Below, one piece after another: positions 6,506-18,813 of a stretch of DNA of 64,000 nucleotides. Where the stretch lies: assembly GCF_009914755.1 (NCBI RefSeq), contig NC_060931.1; one strand, written 5' to 3'. The notes beneath the pieces are model-generated. The model did no database searches. It had not been told where the DNA came from and worked only from the letters and a program-made list of their open reading frames with translations. The number at the start of each line of letters is the position of its first letter. The first letter of the stretch is position 1. The translations under genes were made by a program, and so were the position numbers. Source of the stretch: the human T2T-CHM13v2.0 reference genome, Homo sapiens.

Positions 6506-6739
<234 letters not shown>

Positions 6740-7088
6740 TAGTATAGACGGGGTTTCACCATGTTGGCCAGGCTGGTCTAGAACTCTTGGCCCAAGTGAT
6801 CCTTCCACCTCAGCTTCCTAAAGTGCTGGGATTACAGGTGTGAGCCACTGTGTCTGCCCTAGGAATCAATTTAATATACACTGGCTTCCCTGGCTTTAGT
6901 CTTCCTGTTCCCAGAAGACGTGGAGTACGGGCTCTGGGAGCTAGACTGCTCAGCTCACAGAGATCTTTTTGGCTGCAGGACAGTGGTCCATCACTGGCCC
7001 TGGGGCTCAGATGCCAGCGGGAGCTTGGGGTTAGAAGGGAGACTTTGTTTTTGCCCCTTTGCTAGGGACTCCCAGGGAGCTGAACTCA

Positions 7089-7376
<288 letters not shown>

Positions 7377-10300
7377 CTATAGCCTGGGTGACAGCGACAT
7401 TCCGTCTCAAAAAAAGAGAACAAAACAAAACAAAACAAAACAACTGGGGACTTGGCCAAGCCCCTGGAACTCTGGGGACAGGGGTCTGAAAAGTCCTAGC
7501 TCCCACCTGTTATGATCAGGATCCGAACTGCGCAGCAGCTGCTTTGCGTCCAGAACTTTGCTCCCTCCTCTTGTTATTAAACTTTTTGGCTCACAAAGCA
7601 TTTTTACTTCCTTCTCTCATTTCATGTGTATCTCAGACTGGGGAGTGGGCCCCAGTGTTCTCATTGTACAAAGGAGGAAGTTGGGGCTCAGAGATGGAAT
7701 TGGCTTCTCCAAGGTCACAGGGCTGGTAGGATGGCTTATGGATACACAGCTTCCCAGCTTTTGTCCTGAGCTTTTTGGCTCATGAAGCATTTTCACATCC
7801 CCATCTCATTTCACGTCTGTTTTTGTTTTTGATCCTGGAGGGGGTGCAACATCCTCATTTTTACAAAGGAGGAAGCTGTGGCTCAGAGATGGTTCCTGGG
7901 CTGGAAAGATGGTTTATGGGGTGGGCAGAGATGGGTGAGCTGATTTGGTGGTTTTTATCCTTGATAGAAACCAGCAGGTGTGGCCAGGCGCAGTGGCTCA
8001 CGCCTGCAATCCCAGCACTTTGGGAGGCCGAGGCGGGCAGATCATCTGAGGCTGGAAGTTTGAGACCAGCCTGGCCAACATGCTGAAACCCTGTCTCTAC
8101 TAAAACTACAAAAATTAGCTGGGCGTAGTGGTGTGCGCCTGTACTCCCAGCTACTCGGGAGGTTAAGCCATGAGAATTGCTTGAACCCGGGAAGTGGAGA
8201 CTGCAGTGAGCAGAGATCGTGTTGTCTCAAAACAAAAAACAAACAACAAAAACAACAAAAAACAACAACAAAAAACAAAAAAAAGCACGTGATCCAATTC
8301 TGTCAGCACAAAATCACACAGTGCATGTTATAAAGAAGAAAAAGAAAATAAATGAGTGCCAACCCTGTACTCTCTGACCCCAAAACCAAGGTGATGAATG
8401 GCAGATGTCTTATAAGGTGTTCCTGTAAAAGATCTTCGGGCTTTGGGAAGAGGGCCAGATGCAGGCCTAGAGGTAAATTTCCTTGTTTTCCTCTGCCTTA
8501 GGGCTATGGGAGCTGGAGCGGAGAGGAGAGAAGCACCTTGCCTTTGCTGGTGTTTTTCCCGCAGCAGGTGGGTGGGACTGAGCCAACGGTCTCTTGGCAT
8601 CAACAAAGCATCAACAAATCTCTCTCCAGCTCCACTTGTGCTGAGCTACTGGCTGATCCCCAAGGACATCCTTCTGGCCTCTCCTTCACACCTGGGTCCC
8701 CTAGCCCTGCGTGAGCTCTGTGCTTCTTCCCCTGCCCTGTGTCTGCTCTATGCCTGGAGCCTCTGTACCTGCCCTCTCCTCAACCCCCAACCCCTCCCTG
8801 CTCTCAGCTCCCGATACGCGTGGCTATGCCTGGCAGGGAAGGACAGCTTCTTAGTCACTTCTGTAGGGCCACAGGTGGACTGTTGTAGGGCTTGCATGCT
8901 CCCCTCCCCCATGCCTGCTTCTCCAAGTGGCACTTGGCTGTGTCCCAGGAAAGCAAGGGCAGGAAGTGGCAGGGCGGGGGCCGGGGGGGCAGGAGGCGGG
9001 CGGGGGGTTGGGGGGGGCAGGTTCTGGCCATCTGGCCAAGTCACGTGTCTACTCAGAAAGCTTGTTAAAGGCTACCTGGCTGGGACCACAGGTAAGAGGC
9101 ACCTGGGGAAGGAGGCACCCATGCTGGAGTGCCCACCCGTCCTGGGCAAGGCCCTGGCCTTCTCTGGGCTTCAGTGTACTCCTTTGAGCCAAGGCAATAA
9201 AAGTCCCTGCCCTGCTGACTGGCAGGAGGCTGTGATGAGGTCATCTCCAGGAAAGCACTTATCGCCAATCATGATGTTACTTATCTCTGGTGTTATTCAG
9301 CCCATAGGCTCTGTGTGTAGAGGGAGCCTTGTAAAGAAAGCCCCAGGGAGGCGTGGTCTGGGCAGAAACCATCTCTGTTTGCTTTGGTGTGTGTGCCTAT
9401 GATGGGGGTCAAGGTATAGGAGTGTGATTTGAAACTGGAGAATGCTTCGTTCTTTCCATCATCAAACATGTCTTTTTTTTTTCTTTTTTTTTAGATGGAG
9501 TCTCGCTCTATCACCCAGGCTGGAGTGCAATGGCGCGATCTCGGCTCACCGCAACCTCCATCTCCCAGGTTAAAGCGATTCTCCTGCCTCAGTCTCCTGA
9601 GTAGCTGTGATTACAGGCGTGCGCCATCACACCCAGCTAATTTTTGTATTTTTTAGTAGAGATGGGGTTTCACCATGTTGGCCTAACTCCTGACCTCGTG
9701 ATCCGCCCATCTTGGCCTCCGAAAGTACTGGGATTACAGGTGTGAGCCACTGCACCCGGCCCAAACATTTCTTTTTCTTTTCTTTTGAGACAGAGTCTTG
9801 CTCTGTTGCCCGTGGCTGGAGTGAAATGGTGCGATTATAGTTCACTGCAGCCTCAAACTCCTGGCCTTAAGCGATCCTCCCATCCTGGCCTCCCAAAGTG
9901 CTGGGATTATAGGCATGAGCCGCAGCAACCACTCCTCACATTTCTTGAGCATCTGTGATGTATCAAGCCAGATGCTGGGCACTGAGGTTGCAGAAGGCAT
10001 TGTTCCTGTCTTCTAGGAGCCCCAGGCTAGCAGGGAAGACGGATGTGTATAGAGTTAACCACAATACCAGGCCTCAACTTCCCGTCTGTAACACAGGTGG
10101 ACCATGCTAGATTGTCCCAGCCTGCCCTGTGCTTCATTAGCCGGTCAACAGATCCATCTCAAATACCTCCCATGGGTACTCACTGATTGCTTTAACCCAA
10201 ACCATGGCACTCTTGAAGACTTTCCCTCAGGAAGCTCAAGGACTATGCATCCTTCTGGGTCAGAACTGGACACACAGCCACCAGTGCTGGACAATGGCGG

Positions 10301-15634: not shown

Positions 15635-15894
15635 TCACTTCCTCAACCTGGGTCGCCTTCCACTTTCGGTACAGGTAGACAATGCCGGAGATGAAGCCAT
15701 CCTTGGCAGAGATGCCGGATACCACCACCAGCTCGGAGGTAGCCAGCTCCCAGCGGTCCACAGGCGGTCCACAGGCCAGGCCACCAGGCCTTCCCACATC
15801 CCAGCCTGCTCCAGCCTGTCCAGGGTGGCCTCCAGAGCCTCCTTGTATTGAAGGTTGGACCAGTTGGTCCTGGTGGTCAGACACACCAGCCCAC
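15635..15894 (-). CDS. METTL27: METTL27 last coding exon (GGLVCLTTRT...GRRPRLRK*)
   Basis: ccccag|GT acceptor at 15894, motif III KPGGLVCL across the junction; spliced exons total 245 aa. Confidence 0.95.
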
Positions 15895-16009
15895 CTGGGG
15901 GAGAGGGGTAGGTGAGGTGGGGGAGGGGCAGGAGCCACAGTCCTGGGCCATCTCTGCTGGGGATGGTTGTCCCTTCAAGGCAAGAAATTCGACTTAAAAG
16001 ATTGGGGAC

Positions 16010-18179
16010 GCTCTCTCCCTCTCCCTCTCCCTCTCCCTCCTCTCCCTCCTCTCCCTCCTCTCCCTCCTCTCCCTCCTCTCCCTCCTCTCCCTCCTCTCCC
16101 TCTCCCTCTCCCCACGGTCTCCCTCTCCCTCTCTTTCCACGGTCTCCCTCTCATGCTGAGCCGAAGCTGGACTGTACTGCTGCCATCTCGGCTCACTGCA
16201 ACCTCCCTGCCTGACTCTCCTGACTCAGCCTGCCGAGTGCCTGCGATTGCAGACTCGCGCCGCCACGCCTGACTGGTTTTGGTGGAGACGGGGTTTCGCT
16301 GTGTTGGCCAGGCCGGTCTCCAGCCCCTAACCGCACGTGATCCACCAGCCTCGGCCTCCTGAGGTGCCGGGATTGCAGATGGAGTCTCGTTCACTCAGTG
16401 CTCAATGGTGCCCAGGCTGGAGTGCAGTAGCGTGATCTTGGCTCGCTACAACCTCCACCTCCCAGCCGCCTGCCTTGGCCTCCCAAAGTGCCGAGATTGC
16501 AGCCTCTGCCCGGCCGCCACCCCGTCTGGGAAGTGAGGAGCATCTCTGCCTGGCCGCCCATCATCTGGGATGTGAGGAGCCCCTCTGCCTGGCTGCCCAG
16601 TCTGGAAAGTGAGGAGCGTCTCCGCCCGGCCGCCATCCCACCTAGGAAGTGAGGAGCACCTCTGCCCGGCCGCCATCACATCTAGGAAGTGAGGAGCGTC
16701 TCTGCCCGGCCGCCCATCGTCTGAGATGTGGGGAGCGCCTCTGCCCCGCCGCCCCGTCTGGGATGTGAGGAGCACCTCTGCCCGGCCGCAACCCCGTCTG
16801 GGAGGTGAGGAGCATCTCTGCCCGGCCGCCCCGTCTGAGAAGTGAGGAGCCCCTCCGCCTGGCAGCCGCCCCGTCTGGGAAGTGAGGAGCCCCTCCGCCC
16901 GGCAGCCGCCCCGTCTGGGAAGTGAGGAGCGTCTCCGCCCGGCAGCCACCCCATCCGGGAGGGAGGTGGGGGGGTCAGCCCCCCGCCCCACCAGCCGCCC
17001 CATCCGGGAGGGAGGTGGGGGGGTCAGCCCCCTGCCCGGCCAGCCGCCCATCCGGGAGGGAGGTAGGGGGGTCAGCCCCCCGCCCGGCCAGCCGCCCCGT
17101 CCGGGAGGGAGGTGGGGGGGTCAGCCCCCCGCCCGGCCAGCTGCCCCGTCCAGTAGGTGAGGGGCGCCTCTGCCCGGCTGCCCCTACTGGGAAGTGAGGA
17201 GCCCCTCTGCCCGGCCAGCCGCCCAGTCCGGGAGGGAGGTGGGGGGGTCAGCCCCCCGCCCGGCCAGCCGCCCCGTCCGGGAGGTGAGGGGCGCCTCTGC
17301 CCGGCCACCCCTACTGGGAAGTGAGGAGCCCCTCTGCCCGGCCAGCCGCCCCATCCGGGAGGGAGGTGGGGGGGTCAGCCCCCCGCCCGGCCAGCCGCCC
17401 CGTCCGGGAGGTGAGGGGCGCCTCTGCCCGGCCACCCCTACTGGGAAGTGAGGAGCCCCTCTGCCCGGCCAGCCGCCCAGTCCGGGAGGGAGGTGGGGGG
17501 GTCAGCCCCCCGCCCGGCCAGCCCCCCCATCCGGGAAGTGAGGGGCGCCTCTGCCCGGCCGCCCCTACTGGGAAGTGAGGAGCCCCTCTGCCCGGCCACC
17601 ACCCCGTCTGGGAGGTGTGCCCAACAGCTCATTGAGAACGGGCCAGGATGACAATGGCGGCTTTGTGGAATAGAAAGGCAGGAAAGGTGGGGAAAAGATT
17701 GAGAAATCGGATGGTTGCCGTGTCTGTGTAGAAAGAAGTAGACATGGGAGACTTTTCATTTTGTTCTGTACTAAGAAAAATTCTTCTGCCTTGGGATCCT
17801 GTTGATCTATGACCTTACCCCCAACCCTGTGCTCTCTGAAACATGTGCTGTGTCCACTCAGGGTTGAATGGATTAAGGGCAGTGCAAGATGTGCTTTGTT
17901 AAACAGATGCTTGAAGGCAGCATGCTCGTTAAGAGTCATCACCACTCCCTAATCTCAAGTACCCAGGGACACAAACACTGCGGAAGGCCGCAGGGTCCTC
18001 TGCCTAGGAAAACCAGAGACCTTTGTTCACTTGTTTAGCTGCTGACCTTCCCTCCACTATTGTCCTATGACCCTGCCAAATCCCCCTCTGTGAGAAACAC
18101 CCAAGAATTATCAATAAAAAATAAATAAATAAATAAATAAATTAAAAAAAAATAAAAAAAAAATAAAAAGTCAATCAAT

Positions 18180-18218
<39 letters not shown>
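16010..18218 (+). mobile_element. Full-length SVA retrotransposon, young subfamily (SVA_F/E-like), antisense in the last METTL27 intron
   Basis: CCCTCT hexamer head ~16011-16112, Alu-like domain to ~16500, GC-rich VNTR to ~17615, SINE-R to AATAAA 18113-18118, (TAAA)n tail; TSD AAAAGATTGGGGAC at 15996-16009 and 18219-18232. Subfamily judged from remembered diagnostic motifs. Confidence 0.95.
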
Positions 18219-18220
<2 letters not shown>

Positions 18221-18813
18221 AAGATTGGGGACAAATAAACACTGTAACCTAATCCCATACATGTTACTGTGGAAACAAAAAGTGAAAATAAAACCTAATT
18301 AATGTTCCAATAAAAAAAAAAAAAAAAAAGAAAAAGAAATTCTTCCAGCTTCCTTCCCAGGGCAGTCTTTCTGTGTCTTTTACATTGGGAATTCCTTTTT
18401 CTTTCTTTCTTTTTTTTTGAGACCCAGTCTTGCTCTGTCACCCAGGCTGGAGTGCAATGGCATGCTCTTGGCTCACTTCAGCCTCCGCCTCCTGGGTTCA
18501 AGTGATTCTCCTGTCTCAGCCTCCCTTGCAGCTGGGATTACAGGCACGTGCCACCACGCCCGGCTATTTTGTATTTTTTGTAGAGATGGGGTTTTGCCAT
18601 GTTGGCCAGGCTGGTCTCGAACTTTTGACCTCAGGTGATCTGCCCGCTGGGGATTATAAGCGTGAGCCACTGTGCCTGCCCACCCCCCCTTTTTTTTCTT
18701 TCTTGAGATAGGATCTCACCCTATTTCCTAGGCTGGAGTGCAGCAGAGCAATCATAGCTGACTGTAGCCTCCAACTCACGAGCTCAAGCAATCCTCCCAC
18801 CTCAGCCTCCTGA

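What the first reader, a model, noticed from the sequence alone, without database searches (positions are those of the whole stretch)
15982..18342. SVA inside two nested TSD pairs: an insertion that appears to carry its donor locus on both sides
Seen: an inner TSD AAAAGATTGGGGAC (15996-16009 and 18219-18232, at a TT/AAAA L1-endonuclease site) brackets the SVA. After the right copy come ~75 bp of non-SVA AT-rich sequence (18233-18308) with its own AATAAA (18287-18292), then a second poly(A) tail (~18309-18333). An outer TSD AAGAAATTC (15982-15990 and 18334-18342) brackets the whole unit, and 5 extra bases (GACTT) lie between the two left TSDs. Established: SVAs mobilise 5' and 3' flanking DNA. 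Inference: the transcript began upstream of a parent SVA elsewhere and read through its poly(A) signals, so the inner TSDs belong to the parent and both flanks barcode the source element. A short non-A insert in the first tail (gtcaatcaatt, 18170-18180) could be a still earlier transduction. Alternative: a ~100-nt retroposed fragment arrived first and the SVA later landed in it.
Basis: partly seen in the sequence, partly recalled or inferred. Interest (0 to 1): 0.8.

Follow-up and report, generated by a model that had tools for sequence, protein, structure and literature searches.

The report
SVA copy carrying its lost parent's flanks
This jumping-gene copy (an SVA) in a METTL27 intron carries small pieces of chromosome 14 on both sides, which shows it was copied from a parent SVA that once sat beside a chromosome 14 promoter and is missing from this genome; the mechanism is well known, but the traced family is a neat example.

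Summary
Both nested repeat pairs sit exactly where stated.

Searches of the window's own genome show that the bases between the outer and inner repeats are one continuous native stretch of about 100 nt on chr14 (17438619-17438719, minus strand). That stretch holds a single copy of AAAAGATTGGGGAC at a TT/AAAA site, so it is the empty site of the parent SVA. CpG-rich, GC-box DNA lies directly upstream of it, and an AATAAA lies 19-22 nt before the point where the offspring poly(A) begins.

Two siblings exist. The chr16 copy has both chr14 flanks and the same odd inner tail. The chr4 copy has the 5' flank only. Each sibling has its own target-site duplication (TSD). All three copies start with G+ACTT where chr14 reads C+ACTT, which fits a reverse-transcribed cap at one fixed start site. 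Their sequence differences form a star tree.

The "gtcaatcaatt" tail insert was inherited from the parent and looks like a duplicated SVA end, not a proven earlier transduction. Ape genomes could not be checked.

This is a new member of a known kind, of moderate interest.

The parts
15982..15990 (+). Outer (chr7) target-site duplication, left copy: AAGAAATTC
   Evidence: Exact 9-nt repeat of 18334-18342 (D17). It abuts the first base of the insert.
15991..15991 (+). Untemplated G, probably the reverse-transcribed 5' cap
   Evidence: chr14 has C at this position. All three copies (chr7, chr16, chr4) have G between their own TSD and ACTT. Raiz et al. report the same feature in de novo SVA insertions and attribute it to the cap (PMC3287187, passages).
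15992..15995 (+). 5' transduced chr14 bases ACTT, the start of the parent's transcript
   Evidence: Identical to the 4 bases before the TSD sequence at the chr14 empty site.
15996..16009 (+). Parent's TSD, left copy: AAAAGATTGGGGAC (part of the 5' transduction)
   Evidence: Exact repeat of 18219-18232 (D12). It is single-copy at the chr14 empty site, after TT.
16010..18118 (+). SVA body: CCCTCT-type repeats (about 16010-16152), Alu-like part (about 16153-16502), VNTR (16503-17617), SINE-R (about 17618-18118), ending in its own AATAAA at 18113-18118
   Evidence: Tandem-repeat periods. For the SINE-R part, all 40 scored genome matches (40 scored of 2,075 candidates) had 98-100% identity. For the Alu-like part, all 40 scored matches (40 scored of 4,884 candidates) had 96-100% identity.
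18119..18218 (+). Inner tail, copied from the parent's genomic tail by read-through; contains gtcaatcaatt at 18170-18180
   Evidence: chr16 shares the same tail with the same insert (95% identity over 115 nt). The chr4 copy ends before the insert.
18219..18232 (+). Parent's TSD, right copy (start of the 3' transduction)
18233..18314 (+). 3' transduced chr14 sequence with AATAAA at 18287-18292; donor identity ends between 18311 and 18314
   Evidence: 99% identity to chr14:17438619-17438715 over query bases 1-96, and 98% identity to chr16 over 115 nt. The alignment shows one 1-nt G indel against chr14, shared by chr7 and chr16.
18315..18333 (+). Second (outer) poly(A) tail, added to the read-through transcript
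   Evidence: A-run with a single G at 18330. chr14 continues with CGATGAG instead.
18334..18342 (+). Outer (chr7) target-site duplication, right copy: AAGAAATTC
   Evidence: D17.

Best explanation
An SVA once inserted by L1 machinery on chr14, on the minus strand at the TT/AAAA site now at 17438702-17438715, duplicating AAAAGATTGGGGAC. The spot lies 4 nt downstream of a transcription start and about 80 nt upstream of a poly(A) cleavage site. Together these form a roughly 100-nt transcription unit that runs away from a small CpG-rich, GC-box promoter.

Transcripts of that allele began at the A of ACTT and ran through the left TSD and the whole SVA. They either ended in the SVA's own tail, giving the chr4 copy, or read through the weak SVA poly(A) signals, the parent's genomic tail, the right TSD and about 80 nt of chr14 flank. 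In that second case they used the chr14 AATAAA, giving the chr7 and chr16 copies.

L1 then reverse-transcribed these capped, full-length RNAs at three new sites. Each new copy gained its own TSD and an untemplated cap G. The chr7 copy in the METTL27 intron is one of these offspring, so its inner repeats are the parent's TSD and its outer repeats are its own.

The parent allele is absent from this assembly. It was most likely never fixed and has been lost or is rare.

Shown: the anatomy, the empty site, the siblings, the shared 5' end and the star-like relationship.
Inferred: promoter activity, the cap origin of the G, and the fate of the parent.
For: 1. One search (115-nt query covering right inner TSD, flank and tail) gave 3 genome hits: chr7 itself, chr16 (98% over 115 nt) and chr14 (99% over 96 nt).

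2. One search (exact 18-mer, ACTT plus the TSD) gave 5 hits against 0 for the reversed control.
   - Three hits (chr7, chr16, chr4) are followed by the SVA hexamer.
   - The chr14 hit is followed directly by AAATAAACAC..., so it is the empty site.
   - The chr3 hit is unrelated.

3. Searches show that identity with chr14 starts exactly at ACTT and ends at CCAAT(AAA). Outside their own TSDs the four loci are unrelated.

4. Each sibling has its own TSD.
   - chr16: AAGA(10)TA on the left and AAGA(9)TA on the right.
   - chr4: AAAACAGTGACTTT on both sides.

5. All three copies (3 of 3) have G between their TSD and ACTT, where chr14 has C. Untemplated G at full-length SVA 5' ends is documented (PMC3287187, passages).

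6. Identical 5' ends in three independent insertions argue for one fixed RNA 5' end rather than random 5' truncation.

7. Upstream of ACTT on chr14 the 200-nt window at 17438800-17438999 has GC 0.66 and 16 CpG. GGGCGGGG boxes lie about 99 and 160 nt upstream (read).

8. AATAAA lies 19-22 nt before the poly(A) start, and TTGTGGT lies about 25 nt downstream on chr14.

9. Derived changes were polarised against 27 other SVAs for SINE-R and 7 for the Alu-like part.
   - Private derived changes: chr7 has 2, chr16 has 5, chr4 has 6-7.
   - None is shared by only two of the three copies.
   - One SINE-R state is shared by all three and by 0 of 27 other SVAs.

10. The tail with gtcaatcaatt is found only in chr7 and chr16, as expected if read-through copied the parent's genomic tail.
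Against: - The parent SVA itself was not seen. CHM13 chr14 is empty.
- The supplement of a study of non-reference SVAs in 35 people holds no occurrence of the TSD string (cells there are cut at 400 characters).
- A parent that left three copies with about 0.2-0.8% private divergence, yet is absent today, needs either a short burst from a polymorphic allele or a later loss. My chi-square on the counts 2, 5 and 6.5 gives p of about 0.3, so a single burst is allowed but not shown.
- Promoter and poly(A) use on chr14 are read from sequence only; no RNA data were available.
- The G could instead be a C/G variant on the parent's haplotype.
- The own-genome searches score only the best candidates and skip simple repeats, so further siblings may have been missed.
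- No ape or other human assemblies could be searched.
Confidence: 0.85

Rival explanations
1. Relay or master copy. A short capped chr14 RNA of about 100 nt was first retrocopied to chr16 (or chr7). An SVA then landed in that retrocopy at the TT/AAAA site. This composite, not a chr14 allele, then fathered the other copies.
For: - No SVA is present at chr14 in this assembly.
- The TT/AAAA site would be equally present in a retrocopy.
- The mutation counts are small, so the order of births is weakly resolved.
Against: - All three copies begin at the very same G+ACTT and carry none of the supposed master's flank or TSD. The master would also lack the chr14 promoter.
- No SVA-free retrocopy of the chr14 unit exists among the 3 hits.
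- No derived change is shared by only two copies.
- A target of about 110 bp is a very small one for an SVA to hit (my estimate).
Confidence: 0.07
2. Two independent events at chr7. A small retroposed fragment arrived in the METTL27 intron first, and an unrelated SVA inserted into it later.
For: The nested TSD layout of the chr7 locus alone is compatible with this order.
Against: - The identical composite sits at chr16 within a different TSD, including the same inner tail with gtcaatcaatt.
- A 5'-flank-only version sits at chr4.
- Three independent SVA hits at the same base of the same fragment are not credible.
Confidence: 0.01
3. Same parent on chr14, but the parent was fixed and later removed precisely by recombination between its two 14-nt TSDs. 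A variant of this reading is that the parent still segregates and CHM13 happens to carry the empty allele.
For: - The empty site is seamless, with one TSD copy.
- The spread of private changes (2 versus 6-7) could mean the parent was active over a long time.
- Precise removal via short repeats has been described in primates (recalled, not checked here).
Against: - Such deletions are rare.
- The counts do not differ significantly (my test).
- No non-reference SVA with this TSD is in the one supplement I could search.
Confidence: 0.15

Closest known systems
SVA 5' and 3' transduction groups (Damert et al. 2009 and Hancks et al. 2009, recalled and not held here; PMC12593883 and PMC10681720, passages read)
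   Same: - Flanking donor DNA is carried on an SVA RNA and inserted by L1.
- The donor's TSD lies inside the transduced sequence, which PMC12593883 uses to confirm source elements.
- Siblings share the same flank.
- An upstream promoter is borrowed.
   Different: - Here both sides are transduced at once. In PMC12593883 only the chr10-derived SVA_F1 group had shared sequence at both ends.
- The 5' piece is only 18 templated nt.
- The whole donor transcription unit is only about 100 nt.
- The source element is absent from the assembly.
L1 3' transduction and source tracing, including sources missing from the reference (recalled general knowledge; cited in PMC10681720 and PMC12593883)
   Same: - A weak element poly(A) signal is bypassed and a downstream genomic AATAAA is used.
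- There is a second poly(A) tail.
- The unique flank acts as a barcode of the parent.
   Different: The carrier is a non-autonomous SVA, and the 5' flank is also present, which L1 transductions rarely show.
Short promoter-upstream antisense transcripts ended by early poly(A) sites (Almada 2013 and Ntini 2013, recalled, not checked here)
   Same: A start next to a CpG-rich promoter, followed within about 100 nt by AATAAA and a GU-rich element, as read on chr14.
   Different: No RNA evidence was available, so that chr14 makes such a transcript is inferred only from the three retrocopies. Direction relative to the neighbouring RING-finger gene rests on one exon match.
Full-length retrocopies with an untemplated 5' G (PMC3287187, passages)
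   Same: A single extra G sits between the 5' TSD and the first templated base, in 3 of 3 family members.
   Different: None in kind. Here the feature serves to fix the start site of the parent transcript.

Membership tests
SVA retrotransposon | 5' CCCTCT-type hexamer repeats | tested here: met
   Arrays of CTCTCC-type units at 16013-16152.
SVA retrotransposon | Alu-like region followed by a GC-rich VNTR with units of 35-50 nt | tested here: met
   VNTR at 16503-17617 with periods of 37, 40 and 49 nt and their multiples, and GC of 0.66-0.81. All 40 scored genome matches of the Alu-like part had 96-100% identity (40 scored of 4,884 candidates).
SVA retrotransposon | SINE-R part ending in AATAAA plus an A-rich tail | tested here: met
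   All 40 scored genome matches had 98-100% identity over 519 nt (40 scored of 2,075 candidates). AATAAA lies at 18113-18118, followed by the tail.
SVA retrotransposon | Named subfamily (A-F, F1) | not tested
   No labelled subfamily references were available. The closest non-family copies are chr1:212393408-212396309 and chr17:1579158-1579543.
L1-mediated (TPRT) insertion | TSD flanking the whole insert, a poly(A) at the 3' end, and an A-rich target | tested here: met
   - chr7: AAGAAATTC on both sides.
- chr16: AAGA(9-10)TA on both sides.
- chr4: AAAACAGTGACTTT on both sides.
- chr14 parent site: TT/AAAAGATT.

3' transduction | Unique non-repeat DNA between the element's tail and a second poly(A), mapping to one other locus, with a poly(A) signal before the second tail | tested here: met
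   One search gives a single native locus on chr14. AATAAA at 18287-18292 lies 19-22 nt before the tail.
5' transduction | Donor DNA between the 5' TSD and the SVA start, contiguous at the donor with the 3' flank | tested here: met
   ACTT plus the TSD are contiguous with the 3' flank at chr14.
Transduction group with an identified source element | An SVA present at the donor locus | tested here: not met
   chr14:17438619-17438719 is an empty site in this assembly. Other assemblies are not available.
Transduction group with an identified source element | Two or more offspring sharing the same flank | tested here: met
   chr7 and chr16 share both flanks. chr4 shares the 5' flank.
Promoter-upstream antisense transcription unit | Measured transcription start and poly(A) use on chr14 | not testable with these tools
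   Only sequence features are available: CpG-rich DNA, GC boxes, an initiator-like CTCACTT (motif recalled), and AATAAA.

The most novel reading that the evidence does not exclude
A roughly 100-nt promoter-side transcription unit on chr14 swallowed an SVA and became a complete launch pad for it. The unit provides a start site, an early poly(A) site, and a neighbouring RING-finger gene that I recall as the meiotic gene RNF212B, so the promoter is possibly germline-active. The host promoter supplied the start and the host poly(A) site supplied the end, and the allele seeded at least three lasting copies before vanishing. If this is general, nested TSDs would let 'ghost' source elements be mapped. 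Short promoter-antisense units of germline genes would then be favoured cradles for hot SVA sources.
Probability: 0.4. Interest if true: 0.55.

Novelty: new member of a known kind. Interest (0 to 1): 0.4.

Why it matters
The locus is a clean worked example in which a retrotransposon copy records the exact address, target-site duplication, transcription start and poly(A) site of a parent that no longer exists in the reference genome.

It defines a small family barcode: G-ACTT-AAAAGATTGGGGAC at the 5' end and an 80-nt chr14 tag at the 3' end. That barcode can be used to search pangenomes and ape genomes for the missing source and for polymorphic siblings.

It also suggests, without proving, that a promoter next to a meiotic gene drove the parent. 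That would explain how a short-lived allele reached the germline three times.

For METTL27 itself, the insert lies antisense in the last intron, 97 nt from the last exon, in the Williams-syndrome region. No effect on the gene was tested.

Tried and rejected
- **Chance.** Rejected for the inner pair by length. Rejected for the outer pair by position and by the siblings.
- **One-mismatch variants of the 18-mer.** The four additional hits at exactly one mismatch (on chr4, chr7, chr22 and chrX) are not followed by an SVA. In total there were 9 hits at up to one mismatch, against 11 for the reversed control, so the extra hits are chance. The exact chr3 hit lies in unrelated DNA.
- **More siblings through the odd tail.** Only chr7 and chr16 were found. 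The search skips simple repeats, so this is a lower bound.
- **gtcaatcaatt as an earlier transduction.** The 3' flanks of the closest other SVAs, 8 examined, do not contain it. Its origin stays open, and a repeat of the SVA's own end fits better (D3).
- **Literature.**
  - SVA with METTL27: 4 papers, all about supravalvular aortic stenosis or unrelated topics (listing only).
  - RNF212B with SVA: 0 papers.
  - The TSD string in full texts: 0 papers.
  - The TSD string in the supplement of PMC12593883: 0 occurrences.
  - PMC9311842 main text: no mention of these loci.
  - Damert 2009 and Hancks 2009 are not held, so I cannot say whether this group is listed there.
  - The supplements of PMC10681720 could not be opened. 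They may list the chr7, chr16 and chr4 copies with subfamily and transduction calls.
- **Earlier findings of this scan.** These were closed.
- **Naming the chr14 gene.**
  - One exon 2.6 kb away on the plus strand matches Pfam zf-RING_5 (31 bits against a cut-off of 27.9).
  - The name RNF212B comes from my recall of its N-terminal sequence, not from a tool.
  - No amino-acid-transporter exon was seen in the 10 kb below the site (by eye only).
- **Ape orthologues.** No assemblies are held, so this was not done.
Full report
**What is in the window**

In order, it reads:
- AAGAAATTC at 15982-15990
- G at 15991
- ACTT at 15992-15995
- AAAAGATTGGGGAC at 15996-16009
- a full-length SVA at 16010-18118
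- an A-rich tail at 18119-18218 that contains gtcaatcaatt (18170-18180)
- AAAAGATTGGGGAC again at 18219-18232
- about 80 nt of non-repeat sequence with AATAAA at 18287-18292
- a second poly(A) up to 18333
- AAGAAATTC again at 18334-18342

The SVA parts were checked as follows. CCCTCT-type repeats, a VNTR at 16503-17617 and an (AATA)n tail come. For the SINE-R part, all 40 scored genome matches had 98-100% identity (40 scored of 2,075 candidates). For the Alu-like part, all 40 scored matches had 96-100% identity (40 scored of 4,884 candidates).

The 9-nt outer repeat would not be significant on length alone. One search lists four exact two-copy 9-10-mers in the same 2.5 kb. Its position and the comparisons below make it real.

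**Where the flanks come from**

The window's own genome could be searched.
- A 115-nt query covering the right inner repeat, the flank and the tail gave 3 hits: chr7 itself, chr16:24383992-24384106 (98% identity over all 115 nt) and chr14:17438619-17438715 (99% over the first 96 nt).
- The exact 18-mer of ACTT plus the inner repeat gave 5 hits, against 0 for the reversed control.
- Reading those hits shows that on chr14 the 18-mer is followed directly by AAATAAACACTG...TTCCAATAAA. The 5' piece, one copy of the repeat and the 3' piece are therefore one continuous native stretch, with TT immediately before AAAA. This is exactly the empty site expected for a parent SVA.
- On chr16 and chr4 the 18-mer is followed by the SVA hexamer repeats.
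- The chr3 hit lies in unrelated DNA.
- At up to one mismatch there were 9 hits against 11 for the control, and the 4 additional hits lack an SVA.

**The siblings**

- chr16 carries the full composite: G, ACTT, the repeat, an SVA, a tail with the same gtcaatcaatt, the repeat, the chr14 flank and a poly(A). It sits inside its own duplication, AAGA(10)TA on the left and AAGA(9)TA on the right, within an Alu tail.
- chr4 carries G, ACTT, the repeat and an SVA that ends in its own (AAAT)n tail. It sits inside its own duplication, AAAACAGTGACTTT.
- The alignments of the junctions show that similarity among the four loci begins at ACTT and ends at CCAAT(AAA). Outside those points the loci are unrelated, so segmental duplication is excluded.
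- chr7 and chr16 share a 1-nt G deletion relative to CHM13 chr14.
- The odd tail was found only in chr7 and chr16.

**The shared 5' end**

All three copies have a G between their own duplication and ACTT, where chr14 has C. [quoted passage not shown]

Three independent insertions with the same first templated base argue for one fixed RNA 5' end, that is, a transcription start at the A of CACTT on chr14. Several sequence features fit a start-to-end unit of about 100 nt:
- Directly upstream there is CpG-rich DNA: the 200-nt window at 17438800-17438999 has GC 0.66 and 16 CpG.
- GGGCGGGG boxes lie about 99 and 160 nt upstream (read).
- CTCACTT resembles the initiator motif (recalled).
- The chr14 AATAAA lies 19-22 nt before the point where the offspring poly(A) begins.
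- TTGTGGT follows about 25 nt downstream.

About 2.6 kb away on the opposite strand an exon matches Pfam zf-RING_5 (31 bits, cut-off 27.9). I recall its peptide as the N-terminus of RNF212B, a meiotic RING ligase (PMC11194559, listing and abstract only). That name is recall, not a tool result. Transcription on chr14 was not measured.

**Relationship of the copies**

Changes were polarised with other SVAs, without building any consensus sequence. For SINE-R, 519 nt were compared against 27 other copies. For the Alu-like part, about 367 usable columns were compared against 7 other copies; the ends of that alignment were offset by my extraction and were ignored.
- chr7 has 2 private derived changes, both CpG transitions.
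- chr16 has 5.
- chr4 has 6, plus one unpolarised change seen.
- No derived state is shared by only two of the three copies.
- One SINE-R state is shared by all three and by 0 of the 27 other copies.

This is a star tree, as expected for independent offspring of one parent. The counts do not differ significantly (my chi-square, p about 0.3), so the order of births is not resolved. In the SINE-R search the three copies are each other's best matches.

**Mechanism**

1. A parent SVA inserted on chr14 between a start site and an early poly(A) site.
2. Its RNAs began in chr14 DNA.
3. Those RNAs either stopped in the SVA tail (giving chr4) or read through to the chr14 AATAAA (giving chr7 and chr16).
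4. L1 then inserted them elsewhere.

The inner tail of chr7 is therefore a copy of the parent's genomic tail. This explains why it is patterned and carries an insert, while the outer tail is a plain A-run.

**Results against this reading**

- The parent is not in CHM13.
- The only supplement I could search (non-reference SVAs in 35 people) lacks the repeat string (cells there are cut at 400 characters).
- A parent that left three lasting copies yet vanished needs a short burst or a later loss.
- A relay through chr16 or chr7 cannot be fully excluded. It would, however, require transcription to restart at the same base without the promoter, and it predicts shared derived changes that are not seen.

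**The tail insert**

gtcaatcaatt was inherited from the parent, since it is shared with chr16. The stretch beginning at its ATCAAT is 88% identical over 49 nt to the SVA's own end, ATCAATAAAAAATAAAT... (D3). A local duplication of the SVA end therefore fits better than a foreign transduction. The flanks of the eight closest other SVAs I read do not contain it. Its origin stays open.

**Comparison with what is known**

SVA 5' and 3' transductions, borrowed promoters and donor TSDs inside transduced DNA are established (PMC10681720 and PMC12593883, passages). In PMC12593883 only one group had shared sequence at both ends, so the double-flank layout is uncommon but not new.

I found no printed mention of this family: 0 papers for RNF212B with SVA, 0 papers for the repeat string, and nothing relevant for SVA with METTL27. 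However, the two 2009 catalogues of SVA transduction groups are not held, and the supplements of PMC10681720 could not be opened.

**Verdict**

This is a new member of a known kind, of moderate interest.

**Limits**

- No ape or other human assemblies were available.
- No RNA data were available.
- No subfamily labels were available.
- The genome searches score only the best candidates and skip simple repeats.

Noticed in passing
L004 (G000:C3:147663346-147663363, +): The exact 18-mer ACTTAAAAGATTGGGGAC also occurs on chr3. There it sits after an Alu tail and before sequence that looks to me like the 3' part of an old L1 (recall). No SVA or chr14 flank follows. It is probably chance, although an exact 18-mer is unexpected.
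   Followed up: partly
L012 about 6560-8400 (G000:C14:17432560-17434400, +): Another SVA lies about 4.3 kb from the chr14 empty site, in the opposite orientation to the lost parent (blastn). It is not at the parent's site and has no evident link to this family.
   Followed up: partly
window 18110-18222: The inner tail consists of two similar blocks, each starting with ATCAAT followed by (AAAT)n (88% identity, D3). The second block begins inside gtcaatcaatt.
   Followed up: partly
window 15894-15991: The SVA is antisense to METTL27. It starts 97 nt from the boundary of the last coding exon (15894) and 19 nt from the end of an alternative exon (15972, hub annotation). Any effect on splicing was not examined.
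   Followed up: no
L023 / L050 (G000:C1:212393408-212396309, -) and L051 (G000:C17:1579158-1579543, -): These two SVAs are the closest non-family relatives. They share 5 of 5 Alu-like states that separate the family from five other SVAs, so they are candidates for the lineage that produced the chr14 parent.
   Followed up: partly
L020-L030, 3' ends: Ten of the 11 SVA copies read continue after AATAAA with AAA(A)TAAAT-type units before the plain A-run. Part of the (AAAT)n 'tail' therefore seems to be templated SVA sequence in this lineage rather than decayed poly(A).
   Followed up: no
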